A stretch of DNA of 64,000 bases from Candidatus Woesearchaeota archaeon. Lineage in GTDB: Archaea; Nanobdellota; Nanobdellia; Woesearchaeales; WJIZ01. Shown piece after piece: positions 5,429-48,145 of the stretch. The position numbers and the translations under genes are program-made. The first letter of the stretch is position 1; every line of letters starts with the position of its first letter. Below the pieces are notes generated by a model, which was not told where the DNA came from, did not search any database, and saw only the letters and a list, made by a program, of their open reading frames with translations. The DNA is taken from the NCBI GenBank assembly GCA_018221205.1, contig JAAOYF010000046.1:1999-65998 (forward strand), in the 5' to 3' direction.

Positions 5429-5613
5429 ATACTTACAAAATAGAATAGGGTTCTTGATAATACTTACAAATAGGAAAATTTCCAAAACATTTATATAGAG
5501 AGATTGCTAAAAGTACTTACAAAATAGGTTACTTAGTATAGTAATTCGTAGCTTACTTACAAATTAGGTAAAAAATGGAGAAGATTCATACTCAGATACT
5601 TACATATAGGGGG
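5429..5613 (+). promoter_or_regulatory. Array of 5 direct repeats of the motif (A)TACTTACA-N2-5-TAGG upstream of the cassette-1 regulator gene; a sixth degenerate copy, CTTACATTATAGG, lies upstream at 5391-5403
   Basis: Copies at about 5429-5449, 5461-5474, 5514-5536, 5554-5574 and 5597-5613. The same motif recurs upstream of the cassette-2 and cassette-3 regulator genes. Confidence 0.6.
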
Positions 5614-5658
5614 GAGTTAGAATAAGTAGAGGCACTATAGTTGGCTAAACGTAAGGGG

Positions 5659-6237
5659 ATGACAGAGAAAACTCCTGTCTTTGCTAATGAGAGTTCTGTT
5701 TTGCAATTAGTCAACTCTGAATCTGATTCTATTACTGAGTCTCTTGCGTTGATTGAGGAGATATCTAAGAAGCATGGAGTAGATATAGGGCATATCACTG
5801 AGATTCTTGAGCACAAGGACAAATACATTGTTCTTCCTGTAGGTTTGTTCAGGAGTAAACTTGGTCCTTTAGAAGCAGTTGTCGGGTATATGAAAGAAGT
5901 TTTGGACCTTAATCTTTCTCAGATTGCACGTTTATTGAACAGAGATGAGACCACCATATGGACAACCTATCAAAATTCTTGGAAAAAAGGGAAGATCATT
6001 GTTGATCTAGAGCTGAAGGATGTTGATTTTGGTGCTTTGAAGATCAAGAAAGAGAACTTTGTTGTTCCCTTATCTGTTTTTGCCAATAGAGAATTGTCTA
6101 TTCTTGAGGCTTTATGTGTGTACTTACGTGAGAATCATGGTCTGAATTATACTATGTTAGGGAAATTGCTAGAGAGAAATGAACGGACTATCTGGACGGT
6201 AGTCAGCAGAGCAAAGAAAAAGTGGACAGAGAGATAG
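5659..6237 (+). CDS. Cassette-1 regulator, a small protein with two tandem sigma-70 region-4 / HTH_10 (Bat-type)-like HTH units
   Basis: Two repeats match L..LE..V.yl.e..gLsy..iA.LL.RdeRTiWT...RAkKK (LGPLEAVVGYMKEVLDLNLSQIARLLNRDETTIWTTYQNSWKKGK and LSILEALCVYLRENHGLNYTMLGKLLERNERTIWTVVSRAKKKW). An AAGGGG motif sits 4 nt upstream of the ATG at 5659, and the ORF track uses a TTG at 5641. Paralogs lie at 36056 and 46478. Confidence 0.6.
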   Translation: MTEKTPVFANESSVLQLVNSESDSITESLALIEEISKKHGVDIGHITEILEHKDKYIVLPVGLFRSKLGPLEAVVGYMKEVLDLNLSQIARLLNRDETTIWTTYQNSWKKGKIIVDLELKDVDFGALKIKKENFVVPLSVFANRELSILEALCVYLRENHGLNYTMLGKLLERNERTIWTVVSRAKKKWTER

Positions 6238-9200
6238 TCAAGCGGATAGTGCAAGAGAGCAAAGAGATGCATGAATGCTCTCGCTCTAAAGTCAAGCTTA
6301 GCTCTAATCTTTTTGCCAATTATGCGAAGAAGAAGAAAGGAAAGATCTCTGAGGAGGAATATGTCGGCTACCTGAAGAAAAAGCATAACGGCCGCACACT
6401 GGATGAATGGATCACTGAAGCGCATAAGCATGGTGAAGAGACGAACAAAGTGTTCCATCAAGATTTCAATTCTTTGGTGAGTTCTTTATCCAGTCCTCGC
6501 TTCACTATGGCTGCGATTATCTTATTGGCCATCTTCTTCCTGCAGTTCTTCACTCCAGGCATCATTGGCTTTGTTACGTTAGAAGAGGCTAATGTGACGA
6601 TTGAGCAAGAGTTTACAGCAAATGCAACGTTTGTTCTTGACGTAAAGAATATCCGCTATCTTGGCTTGCAAGGATATGCAAGCAATGACTTTTCGGGAAG
6701 GGTTTATTTAGATGATGGTGTGCAGAGATATGTTCTTTTAGATTACCTGAGCAAAGAGCTTAGACAAACAGTTCCTGATGCTACAATTGATTTTGAACTG
6801 GTTAAAATAGATATCTCTGATGAAGTGAAGGGCATCGAAGTCCAGGCTGATTTTGATGATGATTCTTTGGCTTGTACAATTTATACCATCGAGAGTGATT
6901 CTGCGACCAATCTTTGTTATGGGTATTCAGGATGCTGCGCATTCATGAATGTTCCTCAGACTGAAGAGCAATGGGATGAGCCTTTGTATGTAAACAAAGG
7001 GAAGTTCGGTGCTGGAGACAGGAATCTGGTGAAAGCACAAGTCGTTTGGGCAAATTATAGTTTAGATCCAGAGAATGCTTATTTTGATCTTGAATATAGT
7101 GATATTATCGGAGTTCCAGTCAATGTCTATTCACAGCTTAGGTTTGTTGATGAATGTGGAGGTGCCTGTTTAATTCAATCTGCTAATCAAGACCATACTT
7201 TAGTTGTTGAAGTGCATTCAGGAAGTTTGTATCTGTCAAATTACAGCTTCAAAGTTGTCGATAAACCGAATAGTCCGCCAGTCTTTACTCCGGTTCCGAA
7301 TATTACTATCAGCCCTCCACGGCCTTTCATCCTGGATTTGAGAGAGTATCTCTCTGATACTGATGGGGATACCTTAAAATTGAGTTATTTCGATTCTCCT
7401 GGATTGATTATTGATTTTGTTGGTATGAATGCTGTCATCCGGGTTGATGATAACTTTACTGGTAGGACTTTTACTTTTTTCACTGCGAATGATTCTGAGT
7501 TGATCGCTATCTCGAATATCATTGAGATTAGTTTAAGTAAGAATGCGACTGTCATTGAGACTCCTAAAAAGGATATCTTTGTTTCTGGACAAGTTGAGAT
7601 CGGCAAGCCTGTTACCTGGAGCCGGAGAGTAGATGTTGCGGATATTTTTGGAGAGTTCAGAGTGAATATCTCTGGGGAAGCGTATAATGTCACGGTCAAG
7701 AAAGTGTTCAATGAGACTTTTGAAGAAGTCTCAGGGGCCAATTTAGAGGTTGTAGAGGATACATTACGTCGAAATATCGCCCGCTTTAAGGAGGATGTTG
7801 CTGATAGGAGGGTTGCTAAGGCATTTGAGAGGCAGCGAGGTATTTTTAGGGATGAACCTATTGATGATGTTGAACTTGTCGTTATGGACCTTTCTCCTGA
7901 GATTGAGATCAGTTTTGAGACTGATGGTCCAGAAGTTGTTGAGGAGATCATCAGTGAGAGTGTGAAGAGAGTTACCATCAGTTCAACTGTGCATTATACT
8001 GATATTCTTTCTTATGCTGATATCAAAGACAGCCCTCAAAGCAGGATTAAGCTCTATTGGTTGGTTAATGGAAGCAGGCAGATTGTTTCTGATGTTACGT
8101 ATGAGGACAGGAACAATAATTCCCTTATTGACAGGATTTATTGGACTGTCCCTTCTCTCAGTTCTCAGACGTATGAGATCATCTTGATCACAAAAGCAGA
8201 TCATCTGGATGCGAATAGGAGCTTTATTGCAGATATCTATGAGTATGTCAAGGAAAAAGATGGTAATTGGAGTTACGGAATCAATGATTCCCAATATGTA
8301 AGAGTGACTTTTGAGCAGGCCTTGGATAATTCCAAGGATATTACTTTATATGCTCGAAGTTTAGGCAGTTCTTCTGTTGAAGTCTATACAGAGAATAATG
8401 ATACTTTGATCACTTCCTTTACTGATATCTCCTCTGAAGACTGGTATAAAGTCTTTTTGACTGAATTAGAAGGAAGCCATGATGTGTTTGACCTTAGAGT
8501 TGTAGGGGATAGTGTTGAGTTCGATTATATTGTCGATCCGGTCGGGCAGGAGAATGTTTCACAGTGGAACAAGACATTCGATGGAACCGGTGGTAGTGAT
8601 ATGGCCAATTCTATCGCTATAGATTCTAACGATAACATCTATGTTGTCGGTGATGGGACTAATATTGTCAGTAGTACGAGCGAGGGTGATTGGTGGATCA
8701 AAAAATTCAACTCCTCAGGCAGCGAAGATACTACTAACTGGAACAAAAGTATTGATGGCGTAACTGGAAAAGATAGTCCCACATTTGTTGCCCTTGATTC
8801 ACAAGACAATGTCTATGTTGTTGGCTATGGTACTAATCTCTCTTCCAGCTCTTCTAATTGGGACTGGTGGATCAAAAAATTCAACTCCTCAGGTAGCGAA
8901 GATACCACCAATTGGAACAAGACGTTTGACGGAGCAGGAAAGGCTGACCAAGCCAGGATAGTTGTCATAGATTCTAATGATAATATGTATGTAGGTGGAA
9001 GTGGATTTAATATTACTGAATCAAATCAAAAAGATTGGTGGATCAAGAAATTCAATTCTTCAGGCAGCGAGGATACTACAAATTGGAACAAATCATTTGA
9101 AAGTTCTGCAGCAACTGATTATCTTCAATCTCTTGCGATAGATAGCAATAACAATCTCTATGCTGGGGGACAGTTTTCACTCGATTTGCTTATCAAAAAA

Positions 9201-30200: not shown

Positions 30201-33200
30201 ACCAATCTTCGGAAATATGATTCTAACAAATGGATTCTCTATATCAATCAATCTTATAATTCTTCCTTAGGACTTGATGAAGGAAGTTATACTTATCAAG
30301 CCTTTGCTTCAGATAGTACTGGCAATGGTGCGAATACTGATCAACGAGATCTAGAAGTTGATCTGACGAATCCAGGCATAGAGTTTGTGTTCCCGACAGC
30401 AGCTAATAATTCAGTGATCAACCAGAGTGCAATCTATATCAATCTCTCGACGAGTGATGATAATGAACATTATAGTTTTGTTGATATGGACAGTTCTTTA
30501 GTTGGTTGGTGGCGGTTTGATAATATTTCAGGAGGGCAAGTCATAGATGAATCAGGGTATGGTGGACATGGAACGATTGTGGATGCGATACCATCTGTAT
30601 CTGGGAGATATGGAGAGTCGATGAAGTTTGATGATGACCTTGATTATGTCAATATGACATACAATGAGGCATGGAATGTGAAGAACGATGAACTTACCAT
30701 CAGTTTCTGGCTACAATGGGATGGAACAGGAGTTGATGGAAGAGCAGTCTCTAAGACCGAGATTAACGGTACAGAATCTTATGGACTATATCCGATAAAT
30801 TCTGTAGGTTCTGAAGTACGATTTAGAATCAGAACAGGTGGCACTACTACTGGACTGATGTGTGACTATAATGCTGTTGCAGATAGTGGTTGGCATCATT
30901 GGATCGGTAGATATAATGGTACACATATGGCAGTCTTTATCGATACACAAAATTGTGGTACTCCAATAGCAAAGACAGGAACTCTCGATTATGGAACTTC
31001 AGCTAATGCTACCCTCTTATTCGGTGCTAATAAAAATCTTTATGGGGGAGGAGTTAGAAATCTTACTAGTGCAACTCTTGATGAAGTCATGATCTTTAAT
31101 CGAAGTCTCTCTTATGAAGAAATTCAATCTCTCTATAATGCTACCCTCTATCAATTCCAGAAAAACTTTACTGATTTATCGGATGGGGAACATACTTTTA
31201 CAGGATATGTTGTGGATAGGGCAGGAAATAGAAATGAAACTGAACAGAGGAATTATACTGTTCTAGGTGTGAATTATAATCTTACTTATTATAAGAATGA
31301 GACTGCAACAACTGTTAAAGGATTCAGAGATGCTACTTTAGTTAATGTAAGCTATAGTCTTGGAGATAAGGCTGTTACGTTGGATAATGGTGTTGGTTAT
31401 TATCTATCGAATGTCTTCAATGCGTCTTCGAATGTGAGTTGGGTGAATGTCTCCTTAGAAAATAATCTTGGCGAGCTAGACATTAACGCGCCTTACACGA
31501 GTACTTATGGTTTGATTGGGTTATGGCACTTTAACAATGATAGCAGGTATGAAAATGATTCATTTATCTATGATTTCAGCGGAACAGGTACTAATGGAAC
31601 GTGTACTAATTGCCCAACACTCACTTCAGATGCGAAATATGGCAATGCCTATGACTTTGATGGGGCTGATGATTTATGGACCATGTCCTCTCCAAGCCAT
31701 GTTGATGATCTTGATCAAAAAGGGGGCATGTCAGCATGCTGGTGGATGAATATTGAAGAGGATGCTTCACAAGCAGGTGTGCTGGGCAAGACACTTGCTG
31801 CTTCGAATGGGTATTGGACAGTTCAAATTGCAAGTGCCAGCAACAATCGATTGCTTTTTGAGAAAGATCTTCCGGGAGATAATACAGCCAAAAGCTGGGA
31901 TCAAGCTTATTCCATTGGTATATGGGAACATTTCTGTCTGACTTGGAACGGGGGAGCTCATCGTTTCAATGCCACTGAAGGAATACATCTCTATCGCAAC
32001 GGAACATTACTTCCATATCTAGCAGCAACCAATGGCTCTGGAACAGATAGATCTGATGCAAGCTTAGACTTCGAAATCGGAAGAAGCCAGTTTGTTCTGA
32101 ATGGGACGATTGATGAAGTGATGCTTTTCAACCGAAGCATATCTGCAAACGAAGTGCAGGAAATTTATGAGGGCGGCTTGCGTAAACTCAATCTTTCTAT
32201 CAGAAGCTGTGATGATTCTGCTTGTTCAGGAGAATCTTGGACCCAAGTTGATAATTATTCATTCCAATCACTTGGTGGAGTGAATAATACCTACTTCCAG
32301 TATAATGTTTCCTTCACTACTACTAATATGAGCTTTAAGCCACGGTTATATAATGCCACTGTGCATTATTATTCTGATCGAGGGCCTCCAAGTATAGACT
32401 TGCATGAACCTACTCCTGCTGCCTCTTTCTCCATCAATGATATTGAGTTCAACTGGACTGCTACTGATAATGTGCATGCTACGCTTACTTGTGACATTAT
32501 CATCAATGGTACAGTAAATGTCTCTGGTATCAGCTCAACATCGGGAATGTATACTAATTATTCTATCTATAATTTCGCTGATGGTTATTATCATTGGAAT
32601 GTCAGTTGCGCCGAGATCAGTCTTAATTCGAATACTTCTTTGACCAGAAACTTCACTGTCGATACATCTGGCAATCCGCCAGCATGGGATAATGTCACTT
32701 CAGATGTTCCAGGCAAAATAAATGAACAGAAATACTTCTTTGCCAACTGGACGGATGATATTGGATTAAGTGTGTATGTCTTTTCTTGGAACGGGACGAC
32801 TGGAACATGGGCTAATGATAGCTCAGTTGCAATGACTACAACGAGAAATGAAAGCAATATCACTAAAATCATCAATCTCACGAGAGGAAATGTCATCGGT
32901 TGGAGGATCTATGCACAAGATGTCGGCGGACAGTGGAACTGGACAAATCTTAATACCTTTACTGTTGAAAATACTCCTCCAACTGCTGTCAATCTCAGCT
33001 TGCCTGTCAATATGTCTACTATCTATGACAGAAGGCCATTCTTCAACTGGAGTCCAACACATGATGCTGATAATGACTCTATCACTTACACCATTGTGAT
33101 AGATGAGTGGGATGATTGCTCAGGAAACGGGCTGGAATGCATAACTTCTACCATCACCGACACAACCTCTGCAACGAATTATACACCATCACCATATCTT

Positions 33201-33725
33201 GGACTGGATACATTCTATAATTGGACTGTAAGAGCATATGACGGCTATAATTATTCTTCATGGGCAGGGCAGTTCAACTTCACTATCGCCAGCCTGATCA
33301 GCTTGACCTTAAGCTGTACAGGCTGCAATAATGTTGTTGAGTTCGGCACTGTCTATCATGGTCTTCCATATAACACAACGACCAACAGCCCATCTCCTTT
33401 GATCCTTGAGAATGACGGCAATGTGCTTGCTGATATCAGCATAAACGCCTCTACTGGATTATGGACACAACAAACCCTCAATACCATCTACTTCCAATTC
33501 AAAGCCGGCAATAGTTCTGAAACCAACTCATTCAACTGGACCAATAGCACGACAGCCTGGGCCAATATGAAGGCTAATTTCACTGATGTCATAGGCCAAC
33601 TGAACTTCACCAATGCTTCTGATAGGGCTGAGATTGAACTATTGGTAAGAGTGCCAAGTGATGAGCCTGCGGGCAATAAAGAATCTGATCTGACCATAGA
33701 GGCGAGATACTTTGCGAATGACTAA
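6222..33725 (+). CDS. Giant-1, a 9167-aa surface protein with an N-terminal signal anchor. From N to C it carries a conserved domain shared with giant-3, SBBP propeller repeats, about 10 LamG_3 domains, three DUF2341-LamG pairs, FG-GAP/VCBS propellers, CARDB and many Ig/FN3-like domains. It has no C-terminal anchor
   Basis: A 27.5-kb ORF with no internal stops. The start is a GTG at 6222 that overlaps the upstream regulator by 16 nt, and an alternative ATG lies at 6267. There is a hydrophobic helix at aa ~96-118. Extracellular-type repeats are saturated with N-x-S/T sequons, and domain motifs are readable by eye (see sub-features). Confidence 0.85.
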   Translation: MDREIVKRIVQESKEMHECSRSKVKLSSNLFANYAKKKKGKISEEEYVGYLKKKHNGRTLDEWITEAHKHGEETNKVFHQDFNSLVSSLSSPRFTMAAIILLAIFFLQFFTPGIIGFVTLEEANVTIEQEFTANATFVLDVKNIRYLGLQGYASNDFSGRVYLDDGVQRYVLLDYLSKELRQTVPDATIDFELVKIDISDEVKGIEVQADFDDDSLACTIYTIESDSATNLCYGYSGCCAFMNVPQTEEQWDEPLYVNKGKFGAGDRNLVKAQVVWANYSLDPENAYFDLEYSDIIGVPVNVYSQLRFVDECGGACLIQSANQDHTLVVEVHSGSLYLSNYSFKVVDKPNSPPVFTPVPNITISPPRPFILDLREYLSDTDGDTLKLSYFDSPGLIIDFVGMNAVIRVDDNFTGRTFTFFTANDSELIAISNIIEISLSKNATVIETPKKDIFVSGQVEIGKPVTWSRRVDVADIFGEFRVNISGEAYNVTVKKVFNETFEEVSGANLEVVEDTLRRNIARFKEDVADRRVAKAFERQRGIFRDEPIDDVELVVMDLSPEIEISFETDGPEVVEEIISESVKRVTISSTVHYTDILSYADIKDSPQSRIKLYWLVNGSRQIVSDVTYEDRNNNSLIDRIYWTVPSLSSQTYEIILITKADHLDANRSFIADIYEYVKEKDGNWSYGINDSQYVRVTFEQALDNSKDITLYARSLGSSSVEVYTENNDTLITSFTDISSEDWYKVFLTELEGSHDVFDLRVVGDSVEFDYIVDPVGQENVSQWNKTFDGTGGSDMANSIAIDSNDNIYVVGDGTNIVSSTSEGDWWIKKFNSSGSEDTTNWNKSIDGVTGKDSPTFVALDSQDNVYVVGYGTNLSSSSSNWDWWIKKFNSSGSEDTTNWNKTFDGAGKADQARIVVIDSNDNMYVGGSGFNITESNQKDWWIKKFNSSGSEDTTNWNKSFESSAATDYLQSLAIDSNNNLYAGGQFSLDLLIKKFNSSGSEDAVNWNKSIVAATGSAFYGLFTDSNDNVYAGMSSNVVGVQSEDDWWIKKFNSSGSEDVVNWNKSFDEGTAWAYDYLNFIAVDANDNVFAVGDIDTGAAGYNDWWIKKFNSSGSEDAVNWNKTFNAGTNKYDSATGVAFDSLNNVYVSGYGQNVISGTSSYDWWIKKFEGHPILDTSAPTILFVNKTEANGSTITVNYAEINVSITELNLDAFTWNWNGTNYTMYDDSLVLMLNFDNVSALGESNTYVIDASKQNNNGLVYGNAYPNSSGKYRGSFEFGGSSSDFINFSSNSSLDDLNNGGLTFSAWLYFRSSGGLDVIFSKDAWTSGLMTFYISDGGARTLRFIKDSPDPDVRADWSGIIDLDEWDHYVLTWNGSNISSSISLYKNGAEIAPSSEQNGSVQTWSDAETDFLLGRQFDGFMDDIMLFNTSLSASKAKQLYYSSLQKYDANKWGFYSNQSSLADGTYTYQAYVNDSFGKANATELRTLYVEAEAPSIKFVNLTVANGTVHIKPHIEANVSIIADDFSDFIWNWNGTNYTFYDDSLSLMLNFDNVSALGENDSLVVDTSPYGKNGTAYGNATPNVTGRFGRAFSFDGDGDYVSMGTSSVYNFTNASNITILVWVYAYSLPSYGEIINKGNTEPGSTRQNYAIQSQDQNISFFYRDSANTAWVEYVTDASVLSTGSWHHIAITYKFGTGSSAKIYVNGAETSATWSGGTGNEDPMQNDEELWIGAVDNGGDDVIDEEWTGRIDGVRMYNRSLSSSEVQQHYFSNLRKYDTDKWSFYSNQTNLTLGTYTFQAYANDTYDNPNATELRTVEYRVNPYYGKFSLPPTTHFNVSADLSNICNATLAINAIGMIEWNNCVDARIANFDTYVNLSFNKVSVDPVNLDSSFNSSANITLFYVNLTNPIIQKDGAYCPSCIILNNDGNNITFNASSFSSYSATERTNLSIWDLSDSQTSYANFTQFYANYTNASGTIITTGYCEFRHNKTGRWAALGNMSLGPGLYNWTGDCGYTAGRSCMPVGNYSFNVSCFDPSGSNDNLSSVDNIVVTDYSTSLAIENGSSSYSTARSAYFYANYTTSHQFSQGYGAEIGRVMLNVSGLTQVSTVDFFDCQNTGKRDCMVISYPFGNVTVFYANGSQYWSYLVTGGQTDGVGNGIAIGDLDSDGYFNDIAAPTTDGPNFIVLNETGDLVFQSSFGEIAQNAQVIGIGDLDGDGIDNDIVVNAGSEEFDGFAAFNTSDGKTWNNKWNYTEGGGSSSAGRTILMYDFAGTAHDEVVANWFLGSCCEADNKVVYGNNGSLFFNLSGFQVQATSLLTIDVDHDGKMELLQSGYNEFNVWLANSTELWDKSFSGYSYDAQVVDQDSEGWDDDIILPRRVYQQSALFFEAYDNSSNLVWSVQLSDTTDDLYSIAVSDIDGDGIEEILMGSNQGWLYMFNLSGNMSWSENASLGTIGSKNDPSPGIDPGDITGDGLPDFLVGFGDGIFKVYQDVGCTIEYNDSTADMTWNETLNKWQASRVFSSTGTWEYNITCSKGGYTNQIISSTISIRDEAAIINENNTQPLIPNYNQNVSIYANVTDATDDISWVNFTLQNPSGTNVISYENGTQTGDIWNSSSYIVDEIGTWLWWINASSSDGTKANSSGSFTIPDVNLTFYSNETNTTAFSFLNGTFTNISYSTSNKAISLIPGRNKGNYLSDVFNASTNATWVNISWVSNNLEINPKEPLVKDMVLLMHLNNDSGFGENNSYVKDFSSYGNDGTCSNCPKFVGTGYFQKAAQFNDSSSNQLNIQNDDSISFASGETIAISFWVNKTKEQANQAVLAKVGNNNNDYFNYYIGVKSSTGAFRFQYHNTSGDINSWNGSSGAMAMSLNKWVHFVMVYTYGDGPSFQLFRNGINVTSQGGWTYGDGSGAPSTNTNTLKIGRAGNWWGHMNHAKIDELVMWNRTLSKEEIYQLYYRGAQRLNLSIRSCDDSACSGESWTAIDDYSSQSIGIADNYYFQYNASFNTTNITYSPKLYNITINYYSDQIQPGITLIYPQNDSSLNTSSINFNWTTADNYHSTLTCNLTINSAVNISNIIAGTSTYTNYTVNGFAEGTYLWNVTCIDGSRNSNTSLTYNFTYTPPPDYFPGYWNNATNSPDKIHQNVYFWFNWSDDNGLSHYIFSWNGTNGTWMNDTSVVFTGLVNQSNTSKLINLSGGNTIGWRYYANDTSNQFNFTPIYTFIVSNTTNLTITDLSDTQTVYANFTQFYANYSHDDISISSNAYCEFRHNKTGVWKTLGNMSYDSGSGLYNWTGDCGYLAGHSCMPVGNYSFNVSCFDLSGGYDNLSKVDSVVVTDYPTSLILENGSDSYNLLSVAYFYANYTRDNGFGVNAPPGQEIGRVFWRSNDYEKNAGGGVIAALDLDEDGKKNDIAAAMSRTFAKDGLLVAFYSNTTEAWNYTSGINIDDLKTTDLDGDGYATNLLFNTYLDNFFVFNSTGMQYWNASLEESVSISSVGDVDGDGNNDILVWRRNNHSAYNKSGDLIWIKNHTAGTVAREIAFGDLDNDGKSDEFAVAWGIASMIVFNESGDEVWKKNTGGSGFSVAWGDFDGDGYKDDIARGDNYGALRFYNASGDAIDVVTGNRPYELIVVDYDSDAIDDIIAGVQYGNVTLYNGTLDAQWVFDTAQDVYHVLAEDVDGDGIQEVIVGDATGIVHLLSFNGSHRWSQGTIESGMGTSDEAMAVLDFNNDGLLDIGTVSYYGFINVYQDVSCVMAFNDSSKYNMTWNNSLNKWQANRTFSSSATYDYNITCSKGGYTQQLGTSQIKIGSIPVINKNYTIPTMPFYGQNVTIQANVTDDNNNIRSVNFSLVGPSGIWYINYTNGTNFNNDMWNSSLFELGESGTWSWYINVTDDDGYITSSYGSFVVSENPPNVTLLYPLNINVSHTRIIGFVYNVSSPIDISSCSLYIHNILNDTDSSVTENINQTFIKTLNNGIYNWTVGCIDNTDQAVNATFGFFNISADVLVSENLNPSSIFENTPTNISVSGHINLSNGENVSNANILIYFNSSLISVATGQTYTDWMNYSYHYRTLINVSQAASADLNNTLYLLNISTDRFIAAGRMNSNCSDVRFTDVNGANLSFVLVYGTCNTTNTHFFVWSNLTGNANTSLYMYYNNPGASYASLSNPDPTLKAWYLFDNESTYGENNTHIFDFSGYGNNASCSSTCPGYNSSAQFGGTFNFAGFDTYFNASHSEALDINGSALTITAWLYLRQTGADDAIIAKAWETGVSAGSIYQYAVEWDSSPNGIDFFIGRPGGAGLTEVTTTSAPWADKWLHFAGTYNGTHMAIYVNGILNATTAYTEGIVNRTTPLIIGGDYQGEQNFDGMIDDLRLYNRTLSADEIYSFFADKTLYYVSNNSYTATDSDGNYNYTFAVNAGAGSYPVTVNLTYRGMIGNNTQYLTVSENSINLTESLNPSSIDADTMTNVFISGQVNWTNRTAVTNTPIEIWFNGSAYFYNESGLLGNESTWWDTDWKYRVKIAYELNVTSSLTDTIILVNASTASYISSGKMNSDCSDARFADSLGRKLPATVETSTCNSAGTIFWAWANLSASTNTTMYMYFGNSGASLDTSYTVPDSDLLVYYHFDNSSAYGENDSIVYDFSRNGRNGTYYGNAFSNSTGYYGGMLQMDGVGDYVNTTDISWAQTDSFTMMLWFYKYSATNGVLIGKHHTASPFEFSFYTGTNSVDFAAWSSPGDTSLAFNGQVNIFANTWYHVAVTYNGSVGKMYVNGMNRSNDTSDKTIGDGTLNLQVGSGYHPTTAGVAYLNGSVDEVRIYNRSLSHDEIKAIYNATKGYFLGNQSLTVTDSLGKYNYTLAVNKFAGTYPVKVNMTSNGKVGNNTQYLTASYVTTVTLNSPENDYVAQDSITFNCSAVNLGGLNNITLYWNYSGNFVSNGTVNISSTANGTTFTRQLPNPRENVLWNCLAYGTQSNSFASANRTFNARTITVTETLSPSSFNELTSTDVSITGNMNWSNNTPVNNMPIEIWFNGSRYWYNESGVLGNESEWLNDSWKYRLKVNIDSVTTTDLNDTLVLVNVTTLDYIAQGKMQDDCSDARFGDSYGNELGFSVETSTCNTSLTHFWVWTNLTGSVNTSIYLYFGNVDAGFDLDYTNPDDRLLIYYHFDNSSAYGENDALVYDFSRHGNNGTIGRGDEFINTSGRFGGAMQLDGDLDYVNTTDLSWKTNESFSMLAWFKAFDNTAGVIFGKPTFEYSLYTEADGSIIFIYWKSSGLEAITLAEYNAGIVPYRWYMAAVTYNGSEGRLYINGTLRQTDNAVTGTLENKANNLLIGSGYHGALGSTGNFIGLIDEVRVYNRSLSEDEVMAIYNATRRYYLGNQSLTMTDSIGNYDYTLTVNMPAGTYPVKVNVSSGSVVGNNTKYLTLTSIPTNLSISDLSDSQTVYVNYTTFSANYSYNSAAIIDGYCEFRHNATVSWSSGRNMTYSPVTKKYEIIADGKYDSMMESQERWILTPNHTVNLLAGDYSYNISCFSDYDNISKVDALSISDYSTTMILNKSSSNVTVNAQVSIYANYSGPWNEIGRQIWNFSIGTNALAIEAADIDNDGLMEVVVGGNTGKITLYNHTGGQVLPLTGIGDGSVSDIEIMDLDGDGIKEIIYGTNANITIVNASFDILANAYIGGTVNTIEIGNFINSSFIGIAVGTQSGTDELRIFNYSNGDITSLWNFNYDDAIYYAVIDLADINNDGIMEIIAGSTGSNLTAFLGNGTVLWNIDTGNSVNSVEAADINNDGKVEIVVGKHDETVLIYNSSGDQIDIVTNAGNNYPYDLEINDLDNDGKIEIIYGDSAGVLNIFNSTLDSQDSYSNGIGINEIIIADINHDGVKEIITGHSVGTNETRVFNYTNGTLSTLWTYDFGNTIYQHDIAVADINNDGIYDMVVGSWNTIVRAFQDVQCNIDFGSGYIPMEWDPNENRWEYNRSFVSSGTKHYNVSCSKNAYEAQTFRSNVSVAQTAEYNLTTVTTANIFSNETLSVDINVTNDGELGGQINVTCYLDNAFFDSYLTTITTGSYNYSTCTKSITNEGGTNHSIRVAIDPLDQIVEFVETNNNQTLSINITQLTGFNISSTTPYVDKQVTFFFNYTRDNDNSNLGPALAARWTASTGTGNLLFSVAIGDPNNDSLMEVVVGDADRDVFLYNFSGSQIDSTSFGSTNDVKGIAIEDLDNDGKDEIIYGDDGSGPLLRVINETLDVLATTSGPQVWNIQIGDINNDSIKEIIASGSGTNDTNVYNYTGSSLTHLWGWEYGGIVLYHAVDLKDITDDGVLDIIVGSLGSNLTAFYGNGTIIWNVDTGLGIYSVEAGDIDGDDDIEIVIGDDAGDVTVYNSTGGVEVSTTSLDAGDVQDIEISDLDNDGTNEIIVSSLSELYILNSSLDTLTSVPTSSIFYSIHIADVTGDSLKDIIVGMSSTTNETRAYTYYQGSLTNIWNYDFGGEVPYKGIALADVDNDSLSDIAAASKGAGTNVILTKLENCDIWFNDTNVWKPMGYNFTTLEYNFNRTFSQSTTYAYNISCTRNSTAPLLFFEAQTYSSTFDVLETPINLSISDLSDSQTTYANFTQFYANYSYDGLPISSNAYCEFRHNKTGIWKSLGNMTYNGGSKLYNWTGDCGYLAGHSCMPVGNYSFNVSCFDLSGSYDNLSAVDSVVVTDYATTLALENGSDSYSTTDVAYFYANFTTSHQFSQGYGAEIGRVMYNRTTLSNVGTVDFFDCQNKGINDCMVTTYPNGNITVYYADGSRYWSYLYAGSQTDGVGSNIAIGDLDGDGYFNDIAAPTTDGPNIFVLNETGALVFESSFGETTYLDAVVGIGDLDGDGLKNDIVNNHGGGQFDGFSAFNTSDGKTWNSKWNYSEGGASSSVARTILLYDFAGTGHDEVVANWFLGSCCEPDNKVVYGNNGSLFFNLSGDQVHGASLLTIDVNHDGVMELIQVGYNDLRVFRANSTQLWSASFSGHSFDAQIVDYDIDGWTDDIITSRRPYNQDPLYLEMYDNSSNNVWSVLLSDTRDDIYSLSAADIDGDGVDEIFAGSNQGWLYMFNVSGNMSWSQNVSLGSIGTDNGQMPGIDVHDITGDGLLDFLVGFDDGAFKVYQDGGCSIEYNDSTVDMTWNETLNTWQTSRTFAGSGTWNYNISCSKGGYTTQTVVSNIEVGAKPVFNINYTIPIPPVFLQEVTIHANVTDPDNNLHSVNFTLQSPSGFNYINNVNGTNFNNDLWNSSGFTLNESGTWIWTINATDTDGFTAASMGSFHVADYNVTFFINETQTLGFGFINGSTYNVTYNQTFYGYTLDSGTGHFSSFIFNASPNASWVNISWVSNNLEINPEEPLAEDLVLLLHFNNDSRYGENSTYVRDFSPYGWNATCTSVCPDNQTNAGKFQGAWNYAADTGFFITDPGTSSLDFANSSIITISAWFNFSGNDNVLVTKGDASSINANYKIDIDTSGTDVDFTYIDENSQTHSWLGASGSMVQFNIYHLVFSYTFGDNESVKVYVNGVNYTGSWTTGNGSSSPSTMNDPLTIGYADFTSGYFNGWIDELAIWNRSLSEIEIHDLYYRGTQRLNISARSCDDSSCSGESWTEITDYTPQDFSLADNPYFQYNVSFSTTNISYKPKLYNVTIGYYQDLTQPSVILNYPTNGLGISSSSVNFNWTATDNVHTNLLCNLTINGKVNVTANATSGVHENYQVNNLADGSYDWNVTCKDGSQNANTSLTYSFTIDTTATSISFADPTPLNATFVNEDYAIINVSITEADLDKLVFNWNGTNFTIYNDSLVLMYNLDNVSALGENDTHVVDMSGHGYNGTSLVNNSDGSFRGPNATGRYGSAYEFDGIDDYINLGAVDVFEDLSQLSTCLWFKTAHTGTSRDIFTQQVDTVWIQTGLSGTVFATRVATSSWVNGNKIVNDGLWHHGCITYNGSDVFLYVDGAQDANVSDANSATVTTGDSVYVGGTATYFNGTIDEIIVWNTTLGSAEINQLYFTNLRKYDSNKWILYINQSYNSSLGLDEGSYTYQAFASDSTGNGANTDQRDLEVDLTNPGIEFVFPTAANNSVINQSAIYINLSTSDDNEHYSFVDMDSSLVGWWRFDNISGGQVIDESGYGGHGTIVDAIPSVSGRYGESMKFDDDLDYVNMTYNEAWNVKNDELTISFWLQWDGTGVDGRAVSKTEINGTESYGLYPINSVGSEVRFRIRTGGTTTGLMCDYNAVADSGWHHWIGRYNGTHMAVFIDTQNCGTPIAKTGTLDYGTSANATLLFGANKNLYGGGVRNLTSATLDEVMIFNRSLSYEEIQSLYNATLYQFQKNFTDLSDGEHTFTGYVVDRAGNRNETEQRNYTVLGVNYNLTYYKNETATTVKGFRDATLVNVSYSLGDKAVTLDNGVGYYLSNVFNASSNVSWVNVSLENNLGELDINAPYTSTYGLIGLWHFNNDSRYENDSFIYDFSGTGTNGTCTNCPTLTSDAKYGNAYDFDGADDLWTMSSPSHVDDLDQKGGMSACWWMNIEEDASQAGVLGKTLAASNGYWTVQIASASNNRLLFEKDLPGDNTAKSWDQAYSIGIWEHFCLTWNGGAHRFNATEGIHLYRNGTLLPYLAATNGSGTDRSDASLDFEIGRSQFVLNGTIDEVMLFNRSISANEVQEIYEGGLRKLNLSIRSCDDSACSGESWTQVDNYSFQSLGGVNNTYFQYNVSFTTTNMSFKPRLYNATVHYYSDRGPPSIDLHEPTPAASFSINDIEFNWTATDNVHATLTCDIIINGTVNVSGISSTSGMYTNYSIYNFADGYYHWNVSCAEISLNSNTSLTRNFTVDTSGNPPAWDNVTSDVPGKINEQKYFFANWTDDIGLSVYVFSWNGTTGTWANDSSVAMTTTRNESNITKIINLTRGNVIGWRIYAQDVGGQWNWTNLNTFTVENTPPTAVNLSLPVNMSTIYDRRPFFNWSPTHDADNDSITYTIVIDEWDDCSGNGLECITSTITDTTSATNYTPSPYLGLDTFYNWTVRAYDGYNYSSWAGQFNFTIASLISLTLSCTGCNNVVEFGTVYHGLPYNTTTNSPSPLILENDGNVLADISINASTGLWTQQTLNTIYFQFKAGNSSETNSFNWTNSTTAWANMKANFTDVIGQLNFTNASDRAEIELLVRVPSDEPAGNKESDLTIEARYFAND
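6507..6575 (+). other. Giant-1 N-terminal TM/signal-anchor helix (MAAIILLAIFFLQFFTPGIIGFV), followed by the conserved post-TM motif
   Basis: A ~22-residue hydrophobic stretch preceded by a Lys-rich, sequon-free, presumably cytoplasmic, ~95 aa. Giant-3 (LLGAMFLQPDITGLFTF) and the 46948 ORF (LFLNSDITGQITF) share the post-TM motif. Confidence 0.6.
6780..8200 (+). other. N-terminal domain block of giant-1, homologous to giant-3 residues encoded at ~50700-52280
   Basis: Collinear matches include CCAFMNVPQTEEQWDEPLYVNKGKFG...YSLDPENAYFD vs CCALLETLPENDEWDEPLFLSYGKHG...YNLDPENAYSE, NSPPVFTPVPNI..DGDTLKLSY vs NAPPLVRALPNI..ENDSLSYAI, and EIEISFETDGPEVVEEI...LIDRIYWTVPSLSSQTYEI vs EIEIEYYTEAPELIEEE...LIDKIEWIVPHLSNQTYEV. 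Confidence 0.7.
8560..9740 (+). repeat. Seven to eight tandem SBBP-type beta-propeller repeats (DWWIKKFNSSGSED..NWNK...DSNDNVYV.G), near-identical at the DNA level with a period of ~170-180 nt
   Basis: tggtggatcaa(a/g)aaattcaa(c/t)tc(c/t)tcaggcagcga(a/g)gat recurs at ~8689, 8866, 9040, 9190, 9350, 9526 and 9705. The protein motif matches the SBBP repeat pattern (D.F..K....G...W....G.....D.g..i..D..GN.YVtG). Confidence 0.65.
9890..11530 (+). other. Two LamG_3 (concanavalin A-like lectin) domains
   Basis: DDSLVLMLNFDNVSALGE...GNAYPNSSGKYRGSFEFGG...LTFSAWLY...DDIMLFNTSLSASKAKQLY and DDSLSLMLNFDNVSALGEN...GRFGRAFSFDGDGDYV...ITILVWVY...GVRMYNRSLSSSEVQQHY carry the LamG_3 hallmarks (LhfDe..G...DsSgngn.gt..Ga....Gk.G.A..FDG..dyv........s.t.s.Wv....dev.iynRaLs..EI..ly). 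Confidence 0.75.
12060..15560 (+). repeat. Copy A of a ~3.5-kb intragenic module: DLSDSQT..CEFRHNKTG..CMPVGNYSFNVSCFD module, FG-GAP propeller, GC(T/S)IEYNDS module, Ig-like, LamG, then SCDDSACSGESW plus an FN3-like domain
   Basis: Collinear with 25940-29430 at about 70-80% amino-acid identity (for example SQGYGAEIGRVMLNVSG...GIAIGDLDSDGYFNDIAAPTTDGPNFIVLNETGDLVFQSSFGE vs ...GIAIGDLDGDGYFNDIAAPTTDGPNIFVLNETGALVFESSFGE). Partial copies lie at 15899-17900, 22459-22900 and 31270-32660. Confidence 0.7.
18355..22275 (+). other. Three consecutive DUF2341 + LamG_3 domain pairs
   Basis: DUF2341-like segments occur at ~18355, ~19700 and ~21307 (W.DTDWKYRVKI...L.D......AS..YIS.GKM..DCSDARF.DS.G..L...VETSTCN......W.W.NLS...NT..YMYFGN). 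Each is followed by a LamG_3 domain (LLVYYHFDNSSAYGEND...DEVRIYNRSLSHDEIKAIY). Confidence 0.6.
22930..25700 (+). other. Two FG-GAP/VCBS-type beta-propellers flanking a CARDB domain (24190-24500)
   Basis: Repeated IDNDGxMEVVVG / DINNDGKVEIVVG / DLDNDGKIEIIYG blades. The CARDB-like segment is AEYNLTTVTTANIFSNETLSVDINVTNDGELGGQINVTCYLDNAFFDS...SIRVAIDPLDQIVEFVETNNNQTLSINI. Confidence 0.6.
25940..29430 (+). repeat. Copy B of the ~3.5-kb intragenic module (see 12060-15560)
   Basis: Same domain order and long stretches of near-identical residues, for example CEFRHNKTGIWKSLGNMTYNGGSKLYNWTGDCGYLAGHSCMPVGNYSFNVSCFDLSG. Confidence 0.7.
29580..32170 (+). other. Three further LamG_3 domains (~29580-30215, ~30500-31145, ~31510-32170)
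   Basis: DSLVLMYNLDNVSALGENDTHVVDMSGHGYNGT...IVWNTTLGSAEINQLY, WWRFDNISGGQVIDESGYGGHGT...VMIFNRSLSYEEIQSLY and GLWHFNNDSRYENDSFIYDFSGTGTNGT...VMLFNRSISANEVQEIY. Confidence 0.65.
32690..33722 (+). other. C-terminal FN3/Ig-like domains of giant-1, with no C-terminal TM segment
   Basis: Beta-sandwich-like repeats (PPTAVNLSLPVNMSTIYDRRPFFNWSPTHDADNDSITYTIVID...YNWTVRAYDGYNYSSW). The protein ends RYFAND with no hydrophobic tail. Confidence 0.5.
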
Positions 33726-33728
33726 ATA

Positions 33729-34142
33729 TCATAAAGAACGGAGCAAGCTTTGCACTATCTCTTTTGTAGAGAGAACTCTTACTAATGATTGTGCTTTCAT
33801 ATCTTTATCATTTGACCAGATAATCGAATTCTTAGCTAGAGCAAGGGCCAGATACGGAGAATCTTTCGGATCTGAGATTATGGCAAGTGCTTTCTTGAGG
33901 AAAGATTTGTACTCAGATAATCTCGCGAATTCAATCTGTTCAGATATCTCCATAAATCTTAACTGGAAGCCATGTTCAGATAATCTAGATTTCAGCAGGC
34001 ATTCTTCTTTATATTTGTTGAATTCAGAGAGAGCAAACTCGGGCGCAGAATATGTTGCCGATAGCACCGAGAAGACATATGACGTCACCGAAGATGGTTT
34101 CATAAGGGAAAAAAGAATATTGTTATCCAAAACGATTTTCAT
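33729..34142 (-). CDS. PIN-domain (VapC-like) ribonuclease toxin
   Basis: MKIVLDNNILFSLM...SDPKDSPYLALALAKNSIIWSNDKD gives the PIN acidic-residue pattern (D5, mid D, C-terminal D.D). It is convergent with and abuts the giant-1 stop, and it is the last gene of a 3-gene minus-strand operon. Confidence 0.7.
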   Translation of the reverse strand: MKIVLDNNILFSLMKPSSVTSYVFSVLSATYSAPEFALSEFNKYKEECLLKSRLSEHGFQLRFMEISEQIEFARLSEYKSFLKKALAIISDPKDSPYLALALAKNSIIWSNDKDMKAQSLVRVLSTKEIVQSLLRSL

Positions 34143-46411: not shown

Positions 46412-46484
46412 GTTTACTCATATATATTTACTTTAGGGTAATATTTATAAATAGATATACTTATATGTATATACTAGATGCCTA
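46412..46484 (+). promoter_or_regulatory. Degenerate TACTTA...TAGG motif copies upstream of, and overlapping, the cassette-3 regulator start
   Basis: TTTACTCATATATATTTACTTTAGGGTAATA and ATACTTATATGTATATACTAGATGCCTAGG, the latter spanning the ATG at 46478. Confidence 0.45.
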
Positions 46485-48075: not shown

Positions 48076-48094
48076 TAATATTTTTAAAGGAAAG

Positions 48095-48132
48095 GTATCA
48101 AAATGATATATAAAGTATATCAAAATGATATA
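48095..48132 (+). promoter_or_regulatory. Direct repeat (TATCAAAATGATATA x2) in the promoter region of the RHH gene
   Basis: gtatcaaaatgatata at 48095-48110 and gtatatcaaaatgatata at 48115-48132, ending 14 nt upstream of the ATG at 48146. Confidence 0.4.
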
Positions 48133-48145
48133 CTAGTATGCATAG

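What the first reader, a model, noticed from the sequence alone, without database searches (positions are those of the whole stretch)
6222..33725. 27.5-kb single ORF encoding a 9167-aa multidomain surface protein
This is among the largest prokaryotic ORFs. It has a cytoplasmic Lys-rich N-terminus, one signal-anchor helix, and then more than 9000 residues of extracellular-type domains. These include an N-domain shared with giant-3, SBBP propeller repeats, about 10 LamG_3 domains, 3 DUF2341-LamG pairs, FG-GAP/VCBS propellers, CARDB and Ig/FN3-like domains, with no C-terminal anchor. LamG, propeller and CARDB content points to carbohydrate or host-surface binding, for example attachment of an episymbiont to its host or a glycan-binding S-layer-like coat.
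Basis: partly seen in the sequence, partly recalled or inferred. Interest (0 to 1): 0.75.

Follow-up and report, generated by a model that had tools for sequence, protein, structure and literature searches.

The report
Giant Woesearchaeota surface protein with regulator
The 27.5-kb ORF is a real gene for a 1-megadalton, membrane-anchored, probably heavily glycosylated surface protein of a tiny DPANN (Woesearchaeota) archaeon; proteins of this kind are already known, but it sits in a conserved two-gene unit with its own DNA-binding protein and a repeated DNA motif, which I did not find described.

Summary
ORF 6222-33725 (+) has a GTG start, encodes 9167 aa and has no internal stop (chance about 1e-260). 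Recognisable domains lie in this frame along its length.
- a helical, Lys-rich cytoplasmic tail of about 95 aa
- one TM helix (aa 96-118)
- 10 LamG_3 domains, with 3 DUF2341-LamG pairs
- one 7-blade SBBP propeller and five FG-GAP propellers
- one CARDB domain and three Big_13 domains
- no C-terminal anchor

The source is a Candidatus Woesearchaeota MAG. N-x-S/T sequons are 2.7-fold enriched in the ectodomain (475 against 175±12) and absent from the tail. Internal DNA repeats are at most 83% identical, so repeat collapse is unlikely. A related locus carries a 9553-aa gene.

New here:
- The first 773 aa form a conserved base module. It is found in many DPANN proteins whose distal parts vary.
- The gene start overlaps a tandem sigma4-like HTH gene.
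- Upstream of that HTH gene lies an array of TACTTACAWA motifs that is conserved across genomes.

Best reading: an autoregulated giant lectin-like adhesin or tether. Function is inferred. I rate it a new variant of a known kind.

The parts
5430..5611 (+). Array of five direct copies of TACTTACAWA (extended consensus about aTACTTACAWAWTAGGTw, an imperfect palindrome TACTTA-n5-TAGGTA). Candidate operator array of the operon.
   Evidence: The window holds 7 exact copies against 0.29 expected, and 0 of 100 shuffles reach 7. All are on the + strand and all lie upstream of HTH1 or HTH2. The same 10-mer forms arrays upstream of the HTH gene in six other sets of loci, with a conserved spacing pattern.
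5641..6237 (+). HTH1: a 198-aa protein with two sigma-70 region-4-like HTH units. Its end overlaps the giant's start by 16 nt.
   Evidence: Pfam Sigma70_r4_2. A profile of the family gives a weak match to sigma-H region 4. It is 100% identical to a Ca. Woesearchaeota protein. Family members sit directly upstream of base-module or other surface-protein genes in every locus looked up.
6222..33725 (+). Giant gene, 9167 aa, 1.01 MDa, pI 4.2.
6222..6506 (+). Cytoplasmic tail, aa 1-95: K-rich, predicted as three helices, no sequons.
   Evidence: AF2 model helices 3-38, 44-52 and 60-88. Conserved in relatives. No sequons in aa 1-118.
6507..6575 (+). Single TM helix (signal anchor), aa 96-118.
6576..8540 (+). 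Conserved extracellular base or stalk, aa 119-773. It has four beta-sandwich domains: 120-346 (Cys-containing jelly-roll), 350-440 (Big_9/cadherin-like), 450-655 and 690-771.
8544..9806 (+). Seven-blade SBBP beta-propeller, aa 775-1195.
   Evidence: DNA repeat family D1
9819..11666 (+). Two Ig-LamG_3 units (LamG at aa 1279-1436 and 1593-1764).
12009..15881 (+). Super-module copy 1, aa 1930-3220: Cys-containing unannotated domain, FG-GAP propeller (aa ~2160-2464), LamG (2776-2947), Big_13 (3043-3115).
15840..17921 (+). Unannotated Cys domain plus FG-GAP propeller 2 (aa ~3394-3716).
18189..22481 (+). Three tandem Ig-DUF2341-LamG_3 units (DUF2341 at aa 4095, 4541 and 5076; LamG at 4211, 4657 and 5193).
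22428..25841 (+). FG-GAP propellers 3 and 4 (aa ~5581-5906 and 6151-6476) flanking a CARDB domain (aa 5996-6087).
25884..29660 (+). Super-module copy 2, aa 6555-7813. It duplicates aa 1930-3220 (73% falling to 45% aa identity) and contains propeller 5 (~6789-7093), LamG 7405-7568 and Big_13 7664-7736.
29754..32666 (+). Three LamG_3 domains (aa 7845, 8137, 8480) and Big_13 (aa 8742-8815).
32931..33722 (+). C-terminal distal tip module of about 260 aa (FN3-like domain plus an unannotated beta domain). No hydrophobic anchor.
   Evidence: The same module ends the 3276-aa protein P0145 (score 163) and a 988-aa LamG-neighbourhood protein in L023 (34% identity). The structure model failed.
33729..34142 (-). 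Convergent PIN-domain gene. It marks the 3' boundary of the HTH-giant transcription unit.
   Evidence: PF10130, E = 1e-18. The + strand ORF 33712-34686 is its antisense artefact.
35886..42864 (+). Paralogous cassette 2: the same motif (35886, 35991, near-copy 36037), HTH2 (36056-36610) and giant-2 (36607-42864; 2085 aa; Kelch and MopE motifs).
46478..57308 (+). Paralogous cassette 3: HTH3 (46478-46951), a 384-aa membrane protein (46921-48075) and giant-3 (48312-57308). Giant-3 carries the base N-domain at aa 743-1313.

Best explanation
This is one intact gene of a DPANN archaeon (Candidatus Woesearchaeota). It encodes a 1.01-MDa type-II membrane protein.

Shown:
- A conserved, helical cytoplasmic tail of about 95 aa and a single TM helix hold the protein in the membrane.
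- A conserved 650-aa stalk of four beta-sandwich domains follows the TM helix.
- Beyond the stalk lie about 8400 aa of lectin-type and Ca-loop-type binding domains: 10 LamG_3 (3 of them paired with DUF2341), 6 beta-propellers, and CARDB, Big_13 and other Ig-like domains. The chain ends in a conserved tip module with no anchor.
- The distal part grew by internal duplication and differs between relatives, while the base is conserved.
- The ectodomain carries 475 N-x-S/T sequons and the tail carries none.

Inferred:
- The ectodomain is exported through Sec and heavily N-glycosylated.
- It forms a filament on the order of 200 nm that binds glycans or surface proteins of a partner or host cell, or of particulate substrate. 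That would make it a giant multivalent adhesin or tether.
- The gene is co-transcribed and translationally coupled with the overlapping upstream gene for a tandem sigma4-like HTH protein.
- That HTH protein binds the array of TACTTACAWAWTAGGT sites in front of the operon, and in front of the paralogous giant-2 operon. The unit would therefore be autoregulated.
For: Real gene: plus domains in this frame along its length.

Against misassembly:
- No N in the window.
- Internal DNA repeats are at most 77% identical over 300 nt and at most 83% over 40 nt.
- G+C is even along the gene.
- A relative preceded by the same HTH gene is called at 9553 aa in both an NCBI MAG and a Logan assembly.
- Most other family members run off their contigs or loci at more than 3800 aa.

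Organism: (100% identity to a Ca. Woesearchaeota protein).

Topology and glycosylation:
- TM helix and AF2 model.
- Sequons 475 against 175±12, z = 24.6. The reversed control motif gives 166. There are none in aa 1-118.

Conserved base with variable distal part.

Binding-type folds only and no enzyme domain.

Precedent: LamG surface proteins of DPANN are proposed host-recognition factors, and giant membrane-anchored proteins are known in Nanohaloarchaeota (PMC10266531). Laminin_G_3 is the commonest domain in archaeal proteins of 5000 aa or more (PMC11573180).

HTH coupling:
- The genes overlap or abut in 10 loci.
- All 11 base-module genes with an upstream HTH of this family have a cytoplasmic tail of at least about 50 aa. 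Only 3 of 10 without one do (Fisher p about 0.001, my arithmetic; the loci are not phylogenetically independent).

Operator:
-.
- Motif arrays go with the 'TTIWT[TS]' recognition helix of HTH unit 1. This includes the distant paralogue HTH2.
Against: - No expression, protein, glycan or binding data exist.
- Ligand and partner are unknown. LamG, FG-GAP and Ig folds also occur in enzymes' accessory modules and in purely structural coats.
- About half of the protein matches no Pfam model, so a cryptic catalytic domain is not strictly excluded.
- The tip model failed.
- Read-level support for the assembly could not be checked.
- The two assemblies of the 9553-aa relative may derive from the same reads.
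- The motif array could be a promoter or other element unrelated to the HTH protein. It is absent from the more distant family loci (HTH3, L007, L008, L022, L023).
- A scan of metagenome contigs for triple motifs returned only unrelated DNA.
Confidence: 0.6

Rival explanations
1. It is a structural glycocalyx or S-layer-like coat, comparable to halomucin. The glycosylated giant would mainly shield or hydrate the cell and would have no specific binding partner.
Against: It is held by one N-terminal helix with a conserved cytoplasmic tail and has a dedicated regulator. That is unlike constitutive lattice proteins. The distal architecture is highly variable between relatives while only the base is conserved, which is typical of partner-recognition proteins. 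Lectin-type domains and Ca-loop propellers dominate the chain.
Confidence: 0.17
2. It is a polysaccharide-capture scaffold for nutrition. The LamG and CBM-like modules would bind plant, algal or microbial polysaccharides for the glycoside hydrolases encoded nearby.
Against: The giant has no hydrolase domain. The hydrolase genes are separated from it by toxin-antitoxin and nucleotidyltransferase genes. Related loci do not show a hydrolase gene directly beside the HTH-giant pair; the nearest there are glycosyltransferase, ABC transporter, GTPase and DUF87 genes, and the one Glyco_hydro_57 gene in L021 lies about 7 kb upstream.
Confidence: 0.1
3. It is the sensor arm of a transmembrane signalling pair, analogous to anti-sigma and ECF sigma factors. 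The cytoplasmic tail would hold the co-translated HTH protein at the membrane. Engagement or shedding of the ectodomain would release the HTH protein to act on the motif arrays.
For: The topology matches class-I anti-sigma factors: an N-terminal helical cytoplasmic domain of about 90 aa, one TM helix and an outside domain. The genes overlap. The HTH units are sigma4-like. Tail presence tracks HTH presence. A conserved candidate operator exists.
Against: No sequence similarity between the tail and any anti-sigma domain was found: no Pfam or NCBIfam hit and no PDB hit. Archaea have no sigma factors. Three tail-bearing relatives lack this HTH gene. No interaction was tested.
Confidence: 0.12
4. 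It is an assembly artefact or a pseudogene, that is, several genes concatenated or a collapsed repeat.
For: It comes from a metagenome-assembled genome, and the gene is internally repetitive at the protein level.
Against: The frame is uninterrupted (p about 1e-260). Repeats are diverged to 83% DNA identity or less. Composition is uniform. There is a single TM helix and a single start that matches homologues. A conserved C-terminal tip module sits exactly at the end, as in P0145 and L023. A relative has a 9553-aa gene.
Confidence: 0.03

Closest known systems
Giant membrane-anchored 'SPEARE' proteins of Nanohaloarchaeota (e.g. SVXNc_0300, 9409 aa; BNXNv_0298, 8880 aa; PMC10266531)
   Same: DPANN archaea. 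Single genes of about 9000 aa. Ectodomains of tandem Ig-like or adhesion domains. Proposed role in host contact.
   Different: Those proteins have an N-terminal Sec signal and a C-terminal membrane region with a VirB4/TraG-like ATPase, and a second ATPase gene lies downstream. Here the anchor is an N-terminal signal-anchor helix with a cytoplasmic tail. There is no ATPase domain and no C-terminal TM, and the downstream gene is a convergent PIN toxin gene. LamG and FG-GAP domains dominate, and the partner gene is an HTH protein.
Archaeal 'huge proteins' rich in Laminin_G_3 (survey PMC11573180)
   Same: Archaeal, 5000 aa or more, with Laminin_G_3 as the hallmark domain. Function is described there as not understood.
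   Different: That survey describes a domain class, not a defined family. It does not describe the conserved base module, the HTH partner or the motif array.
Halomucin of Haloquadratum walsbyi (cited through Bolhuis et al. 2006; details from my own knowledge)
   Same: A very large archaeal extracellular glycoprotein of almost identical length (9159 aa, from memory).
   Different: Halomucin is a secreted, mucin-like protective protein of a free-living haloarchaeon. Homology was not tested here, and the architecture described for it is different.
LamG-domain surface proteins of DPANN proposed as host-recognition factors (Castelle 2015/2018 and Golyshina 2017, as cited in PMC10266531)
   Same: Multiple concanavalin-like LamG domains on secreted or membrane-bound DPANN proteins.
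   Different: Those carry up to about five LamG domains and reach a few thousand aa at most. This one has 10 LamG domains plus 6 propellers in a single chain.
Bacterial ECF sigma / anti-sigma pairs (functional analogy only; my knowledge)
   Same: The two genes are co-transcribed and overlap. One product carries sigma region-4-like HTH units. The other is a single-pass membrane protein with a helical N-terminal cytoplasmic domain of about 90 aa and an outside domain.
   Different: The HTH protein has no sigma2 domain, and archaea use TBP/TFB. The tail shows no detectable homology to anti-sigma domains. The outside domain is a 9000-aa adhesin-like array.
Giant bacterial adhesins (Ebh/Embp, SraP, SiiE, Mobiluncus 7651-aa adhesin)
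   Same: Megadalton chains of beta-sandwich modules that project binding domains far from the cell. SraP cadherin-like modules are structural matches to the base.
   Different: The anchoring chemistry differs: those use sortase/LPXTG, type I secretion retention or a C-terminal TM, and this one uses an N-terminal signal anchor. The domain of life differs. N-glycosylation sequon enrichment is a feature here.

Membership tests
Archaeal Laminin_G_3-rich huge proteins (>=5000 aa) | Encoded by an archaeon | tested here: met
   The overlapping upstream gene product is 100% identical to a Candidatus Woesearchaeota protein. All relatives lie in archaeal MAGs.
Archaeal Laminin_G_3-rich huge proteins (>=5000 aa) | Length of 5000 aa or more in one ORF | tested here: met
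   9167 aa
Archaeal Laminin_G_3-rich huge proteins (>=5000 aa) | One or more Laminin_G_3 (PF13385) domains | tested here: met
   10 copies, with Pfam E-values down to 3e-50
SPEARE / nanohaloarchaeal giant proteins | C-terminal membrane region with a VirB4/TraG-like ATPase domain | tested here: not met
   No AAA or VirB4 hit in any tile. No TM segment after aa 120.
SPEARE / nanohaloarchaeal giant proteins | VirB4/TraG-family ATPase gene immediately downstream | tested here: not met
   The downstream neighbour is a convergent PIN-domain gene.
SPEARE / nanohaloarchaeal giant proteins | N-terminal cleavable Sec signal peptide | tested here: not met
   A 95-aa hydrophilic tail precedes the only hydrophobic helix, which therefore acts as a signal anchor.
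DPANN 'base-module' surface proteins (uncharacterised family delimited here) | TM helix followed by a jelly-roll N-domain with conserved C218, C232-x-G234, C238-C239, C312 and C316, then a Big_9-like domain | tested here: met
   These columns are invariant or nearly so in alignments of 4, 18 and 30 sequences. 81 of the top 150 hits in the cluster-representative library share the full domain after a TM helix.
DPANN 'base-module' surface proteins (uncharacterised family delimited here) | Whole 773-aa base (tail, TM and four beta domains) conserved as a block | tested here: met
   46% identity over 1-775 with L020, 39% with L016 and 32% with L025
ECF sigma / anti-sigma pair | Partner protein is a sigma factor with sigma2 and sigma4 domains | tested here: not met
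   Only two region-4-like HTH units are present and there is no sigma2 hit.
ECF sigma / anti-sigma pair | Membrane partner has a recognisable anti-sigma domain | tested here: not met
   No Pfam, NCBIfam or PDB sequence match for aa 1-95. Only the topology and helical character agree.
ECF sigma / anti-sigma pair | Adjacent, co-oriented, overlapping genes | tested here: met
   A 16-nt overlap here, and overlaps of 4-32 nt or direct abutment in the relatives
Integrin-alpha-type FG-GAP beta-propeller (domain level) | About seven FG-GAP blades with DxDxDG Ca-binding loops | tested here: met
   Five clusters of 5-8 DxDxDG loops coincide with the FG-GAP and FG-GAP_3 hits.
S-layer protein | Self-assembles into a 2-D lattice that covers the cell | not testable with these tools
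   The only link is a weak structural resemblance of the base domains to Sap domains.
Halomucin | Sequence homology to Haloquadratum Hmu | not tested
   No halomucin sequence was available. None appeared among the hits.

The most novel reading that the evidence does not exclude
The giant may be more than an adhesin. It could be the outside arm of an archaeal contact-sensing switch built like a bacterial anti-sigma/sigma pair. In this reading its conserved 95-aa helical cytoplasmic tail sequesters the translationally coupled tandem sigma4-like HTH protein. Engagement, tension or proteolytic shedding of the 9000-aa ectodomain on host contact then frees the HTH protein. The freed protein acts on the conserved TACTTACAWAWTAGGT arrays in front of the giant-1 and giant-2 operons.
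Probability: 0.12. Interest if true: 0.85.

Novelty: new variant of a known kind. Interest (0 to 1): 0.55.

Why it matters
DPANN archaea have genomes of about 1 Mb (general knowledge; this genome's size was not available). Even so, this organism spends 27.5 kb on one gene and about 43 kb on three giants in a single region. Proteins of this kind are the prime candidates for how these cells recognise and hold their hosts, a question still open for the uncultivated Woesearchaeota. The analysis turns an anonymous 'hypothetical protein' into a defined family with three handles for experiments:
- A conserved base module that can serve as a search key for such proteins in fragmented metagenomes, where the genes usually break contigs.
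- A variable distal lectin and propeller array, whose turnover could track host range.
- A dedicated HTH protein with a 17-nt candidate operator, testable directly by EMSA, DAP-seq or reporter assays without cultivating the organism.

If the tail-HTH coupling proves to be a signalling device, it would be a new type of archaeal transmembrane signal transduction.

Tried and rejected
1. Exact look-ups of window proteins failed: MoxR, Dus, the 392-aa surface protein, and P0010 itself are not on record. The source contig could therefore not be read, and genome size and host are unknown.

2. Word-index protein searches with the base module gave only 3 and 10 hits, swamped by Big_9 'tandem-95' repeat proteins. 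The exhaustive HMMER search was needed.

It was redone with proteins from the cluster-representative search.

4. AF2 of the C-terminal tip with a 4-sequence alignment gave pLDDT 33, which is unusable.

5. Sequence searches of PDB and NCBIfam with the base module, tip, Cys domain and small neighbours found nothing meaningful.

6. Low-stringency Pfam on nine inter-domain segments found nothing above threshold.

7. A metagenome scan for three spaced TACTTACA motifs returned 120 loci, and none encodes the HTH or base module. This is uninformative, not negative.

8. ORF 33712-34686 (+), which seemed to overlap the giant's end, is rejected as an antisense artefact of a PIN toxin gene and small antitoxin-like genes.

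9. No tRNA or Rfam family is present in the window.

10. I considered and rejected that giant-3's internal base domain means a wrong start or a fusion artefact. The same four-TM architecture recurs in P0065, P0071 and P0108.
Full report
OBSERVATION

The ORF is exactly as stated: 6222..33725 on the + strand, GTG start, 9167 codons. The window contains no N, and the translation has only its terminal stop. With this window's base composition a stop is expected about every 16 codons. The chance of 9167 open codons is about 1e-260, and the other five frames of the same DNA hold 313-1047 stops.

The start is supported independently. The first residues (MDREIVKRIV...) align from position 1-2 with the N-termini of homologues from other genomes. 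The protein is 1.01 MDa with pI 4.2.

ANATOMY

A K-rich stretch of 95 aa precedes the only hydrophobic helix (aa 96-118). Nothing hydrophobic follows, so there is no C-terminal anchor.

Pfam on two offset sets of 917-aa tiles gives hits above the gathering score for SBBP, Laminin_G_3, DUF2341, FG-GAP/FG-GAP_3, CARDB and Big_13. No catalytic family appears. HMMs iterated on the protein itself count:
- 10 LamG domains
- 3 DUF2341 domains, each directly before a LamG
- 1 CARDB domain
- 3 Big_13 domains

Motif counting shows 7 SBBP blades and five FG-GAP propellers with 5-8 DxDxDG loops each.

About half of the chain consists of inter-domain Ig-like stretches and a recurrent Cys-containing domain that precedes four of the five FG-GAP propellers. 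This half has no Pfam or NCBIfam model.

The protein grew by internal duplication. Residues 1930-3220 and 6555-7813 are one duplicated super-module (73% falling to 45% identity), and there are three tandem Ig-DUF2341-LamG units.

IS IT AN ASSEMBLY ARTEFACT?

At the DNA level the internal repeats are at most 77% identical over 300 nt and at most 83% over 40 nt. This is too diverged to cause repeat collapse or false joins in assembly. G+C is even along the gene.

A related locus with the same upstream gene carries a gene called at 9553 aa, both in an NCBI MAG and in a Logan assembly. With the conserved tail restored it is about 9660 aa. Most other family members simply run off their contigs or loci at more than 3800 aa. 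The chain also ends in a module that is C-terminal in other proteins too. I rate misassembly at about 3%. Read-level confirmation was not possible.

ORGANISM

The overlapping upstream gene product is 100% identical to 'hypothetical protein GOV09_05715 [Candidatus Woesearchaeota archaeon]' on a 75-kb contig. The 14 related loci found among GTDB species-representative genomes are all from MAGs labelled Woesearchaeota, Nanoarchaeota/Nanoarchaeia or 'Methanosarcinales', and one Woesearchaeota genome holds five paralogues.

GLYCOSYLATION SIGNAL

N-x-S/T sequons number 475 in the ectodomain against 175±12 in shuffles (z = 24.6). The reversed control motif gives 166. There are none in aa 1-118. This fits an N-in, C-out topology and heavy archaeal N-glycosylation, which is inferred and not shown. 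Giant-3 is similarly enriched. Giant-2 is depleted, with 5 against 17 expected.

A CONSERVED BASE WITH A VARIABLE DISTAL PART

Residues 84-653 match giant-3 aa 743-1313. Against relatives, the whole first 773 aa (tail, TM and stalk) is conserved as a block:
- 46% identity with L020
- 39% with L016
- 33-51% with L018
- 32% with L025

Beyond that point only generic LamG-array similarity remains.

An exhaustive HMMER search of 1.84 billion cluster representatives gave 732 hits below 1e-30. Many of these are only Big_9 repeat proteins, but 81 of the top 150 have the full N-domain right after a TM helix, with lengths up to 5598 aa.

THE PARTNER GENE AND A CIS-ELEMENT (NOT IN THE FINDING)

ORF 5641-6237 encodes a 198-aa protein with two sigma-70 region-4-like HTH units. 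Its end overlaps the giant's start by 16 nt.

Paralogues (30-35% identity) sit in the same position before giant-2 and before the 384-aa protein plus giant-3 pair. Members of this HTH family lie directly upstream of a base-module gene, overlapping or abutting it, in L001, L007, L008, L011, L012, L016, L018, L020, L022 and L025. In L023 the family member precedes other surface-protein genes. Some base-module genes without this HTH instead follow an ArsR-like, wHTH or RHH gene.

All 11 base-module genes with the HTH have a cytoplasmic tail of at least about 50 aa, against 3 of 10 without it.

Upstream of HTH1 lie five direct copies of TACTTACAWA, and upstream of HTH2 two exact copies and one near copy. 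That makes 7 exact copies in the window against 0.29 expected, all on the + strand. The same 10-mer forms arrays of 2-7 copies upstream of the HTH gene in L001, L016, L018, L020 and L024, with one copy in L011.

The extended consensus is aTACTTACAWAWTAGGTw, an imperfect palindrome, and the spacing pattern is conserved. Of the 31 exact matches in the window plus the 25 loci held at that point, 30 lie within 600 nt upstream of an HTH gene of this family.

Arrays go with a 'TTIWT[TS]' recognition helix in HTH unit 1, including the distant paralogue HTH2. They are missing where that helix differs. This is a phylogenetic footprint of a multi-site regulatory region, most simply the operator of the HTH protein. 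Binding itself is untested.

The 3' end of the unit is set by a convergent PIN-toxin gene 4 nt after the stop. The apparent + strand ORF 33712-34686 is its antisense artefact.

MECHANISM

Shown:
- topology features
- domain content
- duplication history
- conserved base against a variable distal array
- sequon bias
- gene overlap with the HTH gene
- the conserved motif array

Inferred:
- Co-translational Sec export of an N-anchored chain, followed by N-glycosylation.
- An extended filament. Some 50 or more beta modules at about 4 nm each give on the order of 200 nm. This is my estimate.
- Multivalent, partly Ca-dependent binding of glycans or surface proteins on a partner cell or on particles.
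- Autoregulated co-expression with the HTH protein, and probable co-regulation of giant-1 and giant-2 through the shared motif.

Rivals:
- A passive glycocalyx or S-layer-like coat (0.17).
- A polysaccharide-capture scaffold (0.10). Hydrolase genes at 180-2297 are nearby, but none lies directly beside the HTH-giant pair in relatives.
- An anti-sigma-like contact sensor (0.12). The topology, gene overlap and tail-HTH association fit, but there is no homology and no interaction data.
- An assembly artefact (0.03).

COMPARISON WITH WHAT IS KNOWN

Giant surface proteins of DPANN are established for Nanohaloarchaeota (SPEARE; 8880 and 9409 aa). LamG proteins are standard candidate host-recognition factors there (PMC10266531). 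Laminin_G_3 is reported as the commonest domain of archaeal proteins of 5000 aa or more, with function 'not understood' (PMC11573180).

This protein belongs to that broad kind. It fails the defining SPEARE features tested: there is no C-terminal TM or VirB4-like ATPase, no downstream ATPase gene and no cleavable signal peptide. Far larger prokaryotic genes exist.

My paper searches did not turn up the base-module family, the coupled tandem-HTH gene or the TACTTACAWA array. These were keyword searches of a limited library, so this is absence of evidence only.

VERDICT

I rate it a new variant of a known kind, with interest 0.55.

Noticed in passing
window 5430-5611 and 35886-36051; also L001 14-67, L016 9442-9646, L018 9644-10000, L020 6908-7113, L024 8919-9096: Arrays of the 10-mer TACTTACAWA (17-nt imperfect palindrome aTACTTACAWAWTAGGTw) lie upstream of the HTH-giant operons. 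The arrays and their spacing are conserved across genomes. This is a candidate operator.
   Followed up: yes
window 33729-34565 (-): A PIN-domain toxin gene (33729-34142; PF10130, E = 1e-18) and two small antitoxin-like genes (34146-34406 and 34407-34565) run convergent to the giant. The 324-aa + strand ORF 33712-34686 is their antisense artefact.
   Followed up: yes
window 48312-57308 (giant-3): Giant-3 has four TM segments (aa 51-76, 556-581, 753-781, 2966-2995). It reads like a small surface protein fused to a base-module protein. The same architecture recurs in P0065, P0071 and P0108, so it appears genuine.
   Followed up: partly
window 36607-42864 (giant-2): Giant-2 (2085 aa; Kelch and MopE-type Cu-binding motifs) shares the upstream motif and an HTH paralogue with giant-1. 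Unlike giants 1 and 3, it is depleted in N-x-S/T sequons (5 against 17 expected).
   Followed up: partly
window 34664-35875, 43863-45041, 46921-48075: Three paralogous proteins of about 390 aa, each with an N-terminal signal or TM segment, a CARDB-like body and a C-terminal TM followed by a poly-Lys tail. One accompanies each giant cassette. A similar 382-396-aa gene follows the HTH-linked genes in L022 and L023.
   Followed up: partly
window 35902-35950 and 46310-46360: A hairpin-like element of about 50 nt, GAGATTTTTGCCCGYTC...AAAAATCTCGTAAAATGC, occurs twice. Each copy lies just after the last gene of a cassette and before the next HTH promoter region. It could be a terminator or a small repeat element.
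   Followed up: partly
window 3855-4386 and 3005-5377: A MazE/AbrB-like antitoxin plus ParE/RelE-like toxin pair (3855-4139 and 4141-4386), and nucleotidyltransferase genes (DUF2204 at 3005-3658; Polbeta/NTP_transf_2 at 4393-4971, with an unannotated partner ORF at 4934-5377). Together they form a dense block of toxin-antitoxin-like genes between the glycosidase genes and the giant operon.
   Followed up: partly
window 180-2297: Two apiosidase-like (PF13204) glycoside hydrolase genes. The first also carries a Collagen_bind_2 domain. They are not linked to the giant in related loci.
   Followed up: partly
window 58005-61118; L022 1-6528: A MoxR (AAA_3), DUF58 and VWA/BatA gene cluster lies downstream of the giants. 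A similar BatA/VWA, MoxR and DUF58 cluster lies next to an HTH plus base-module cassette in a Nanoarchaeia genome (L022). This may be conserved neighbourhood.
   Followed up: no
L003, L010, L013, L015 (upstream of base-module genes): Where the sigma4-like HTH gene is absent, a different small DNA-binding gene often sits directly upstream and overlaps the start of the base-module gene: ArsR-like in L003, wHTH in L010, ribbon-helix-helix in L013 and L015. These assignments are by eye and were not run through Pfam.
   Followed up: partly
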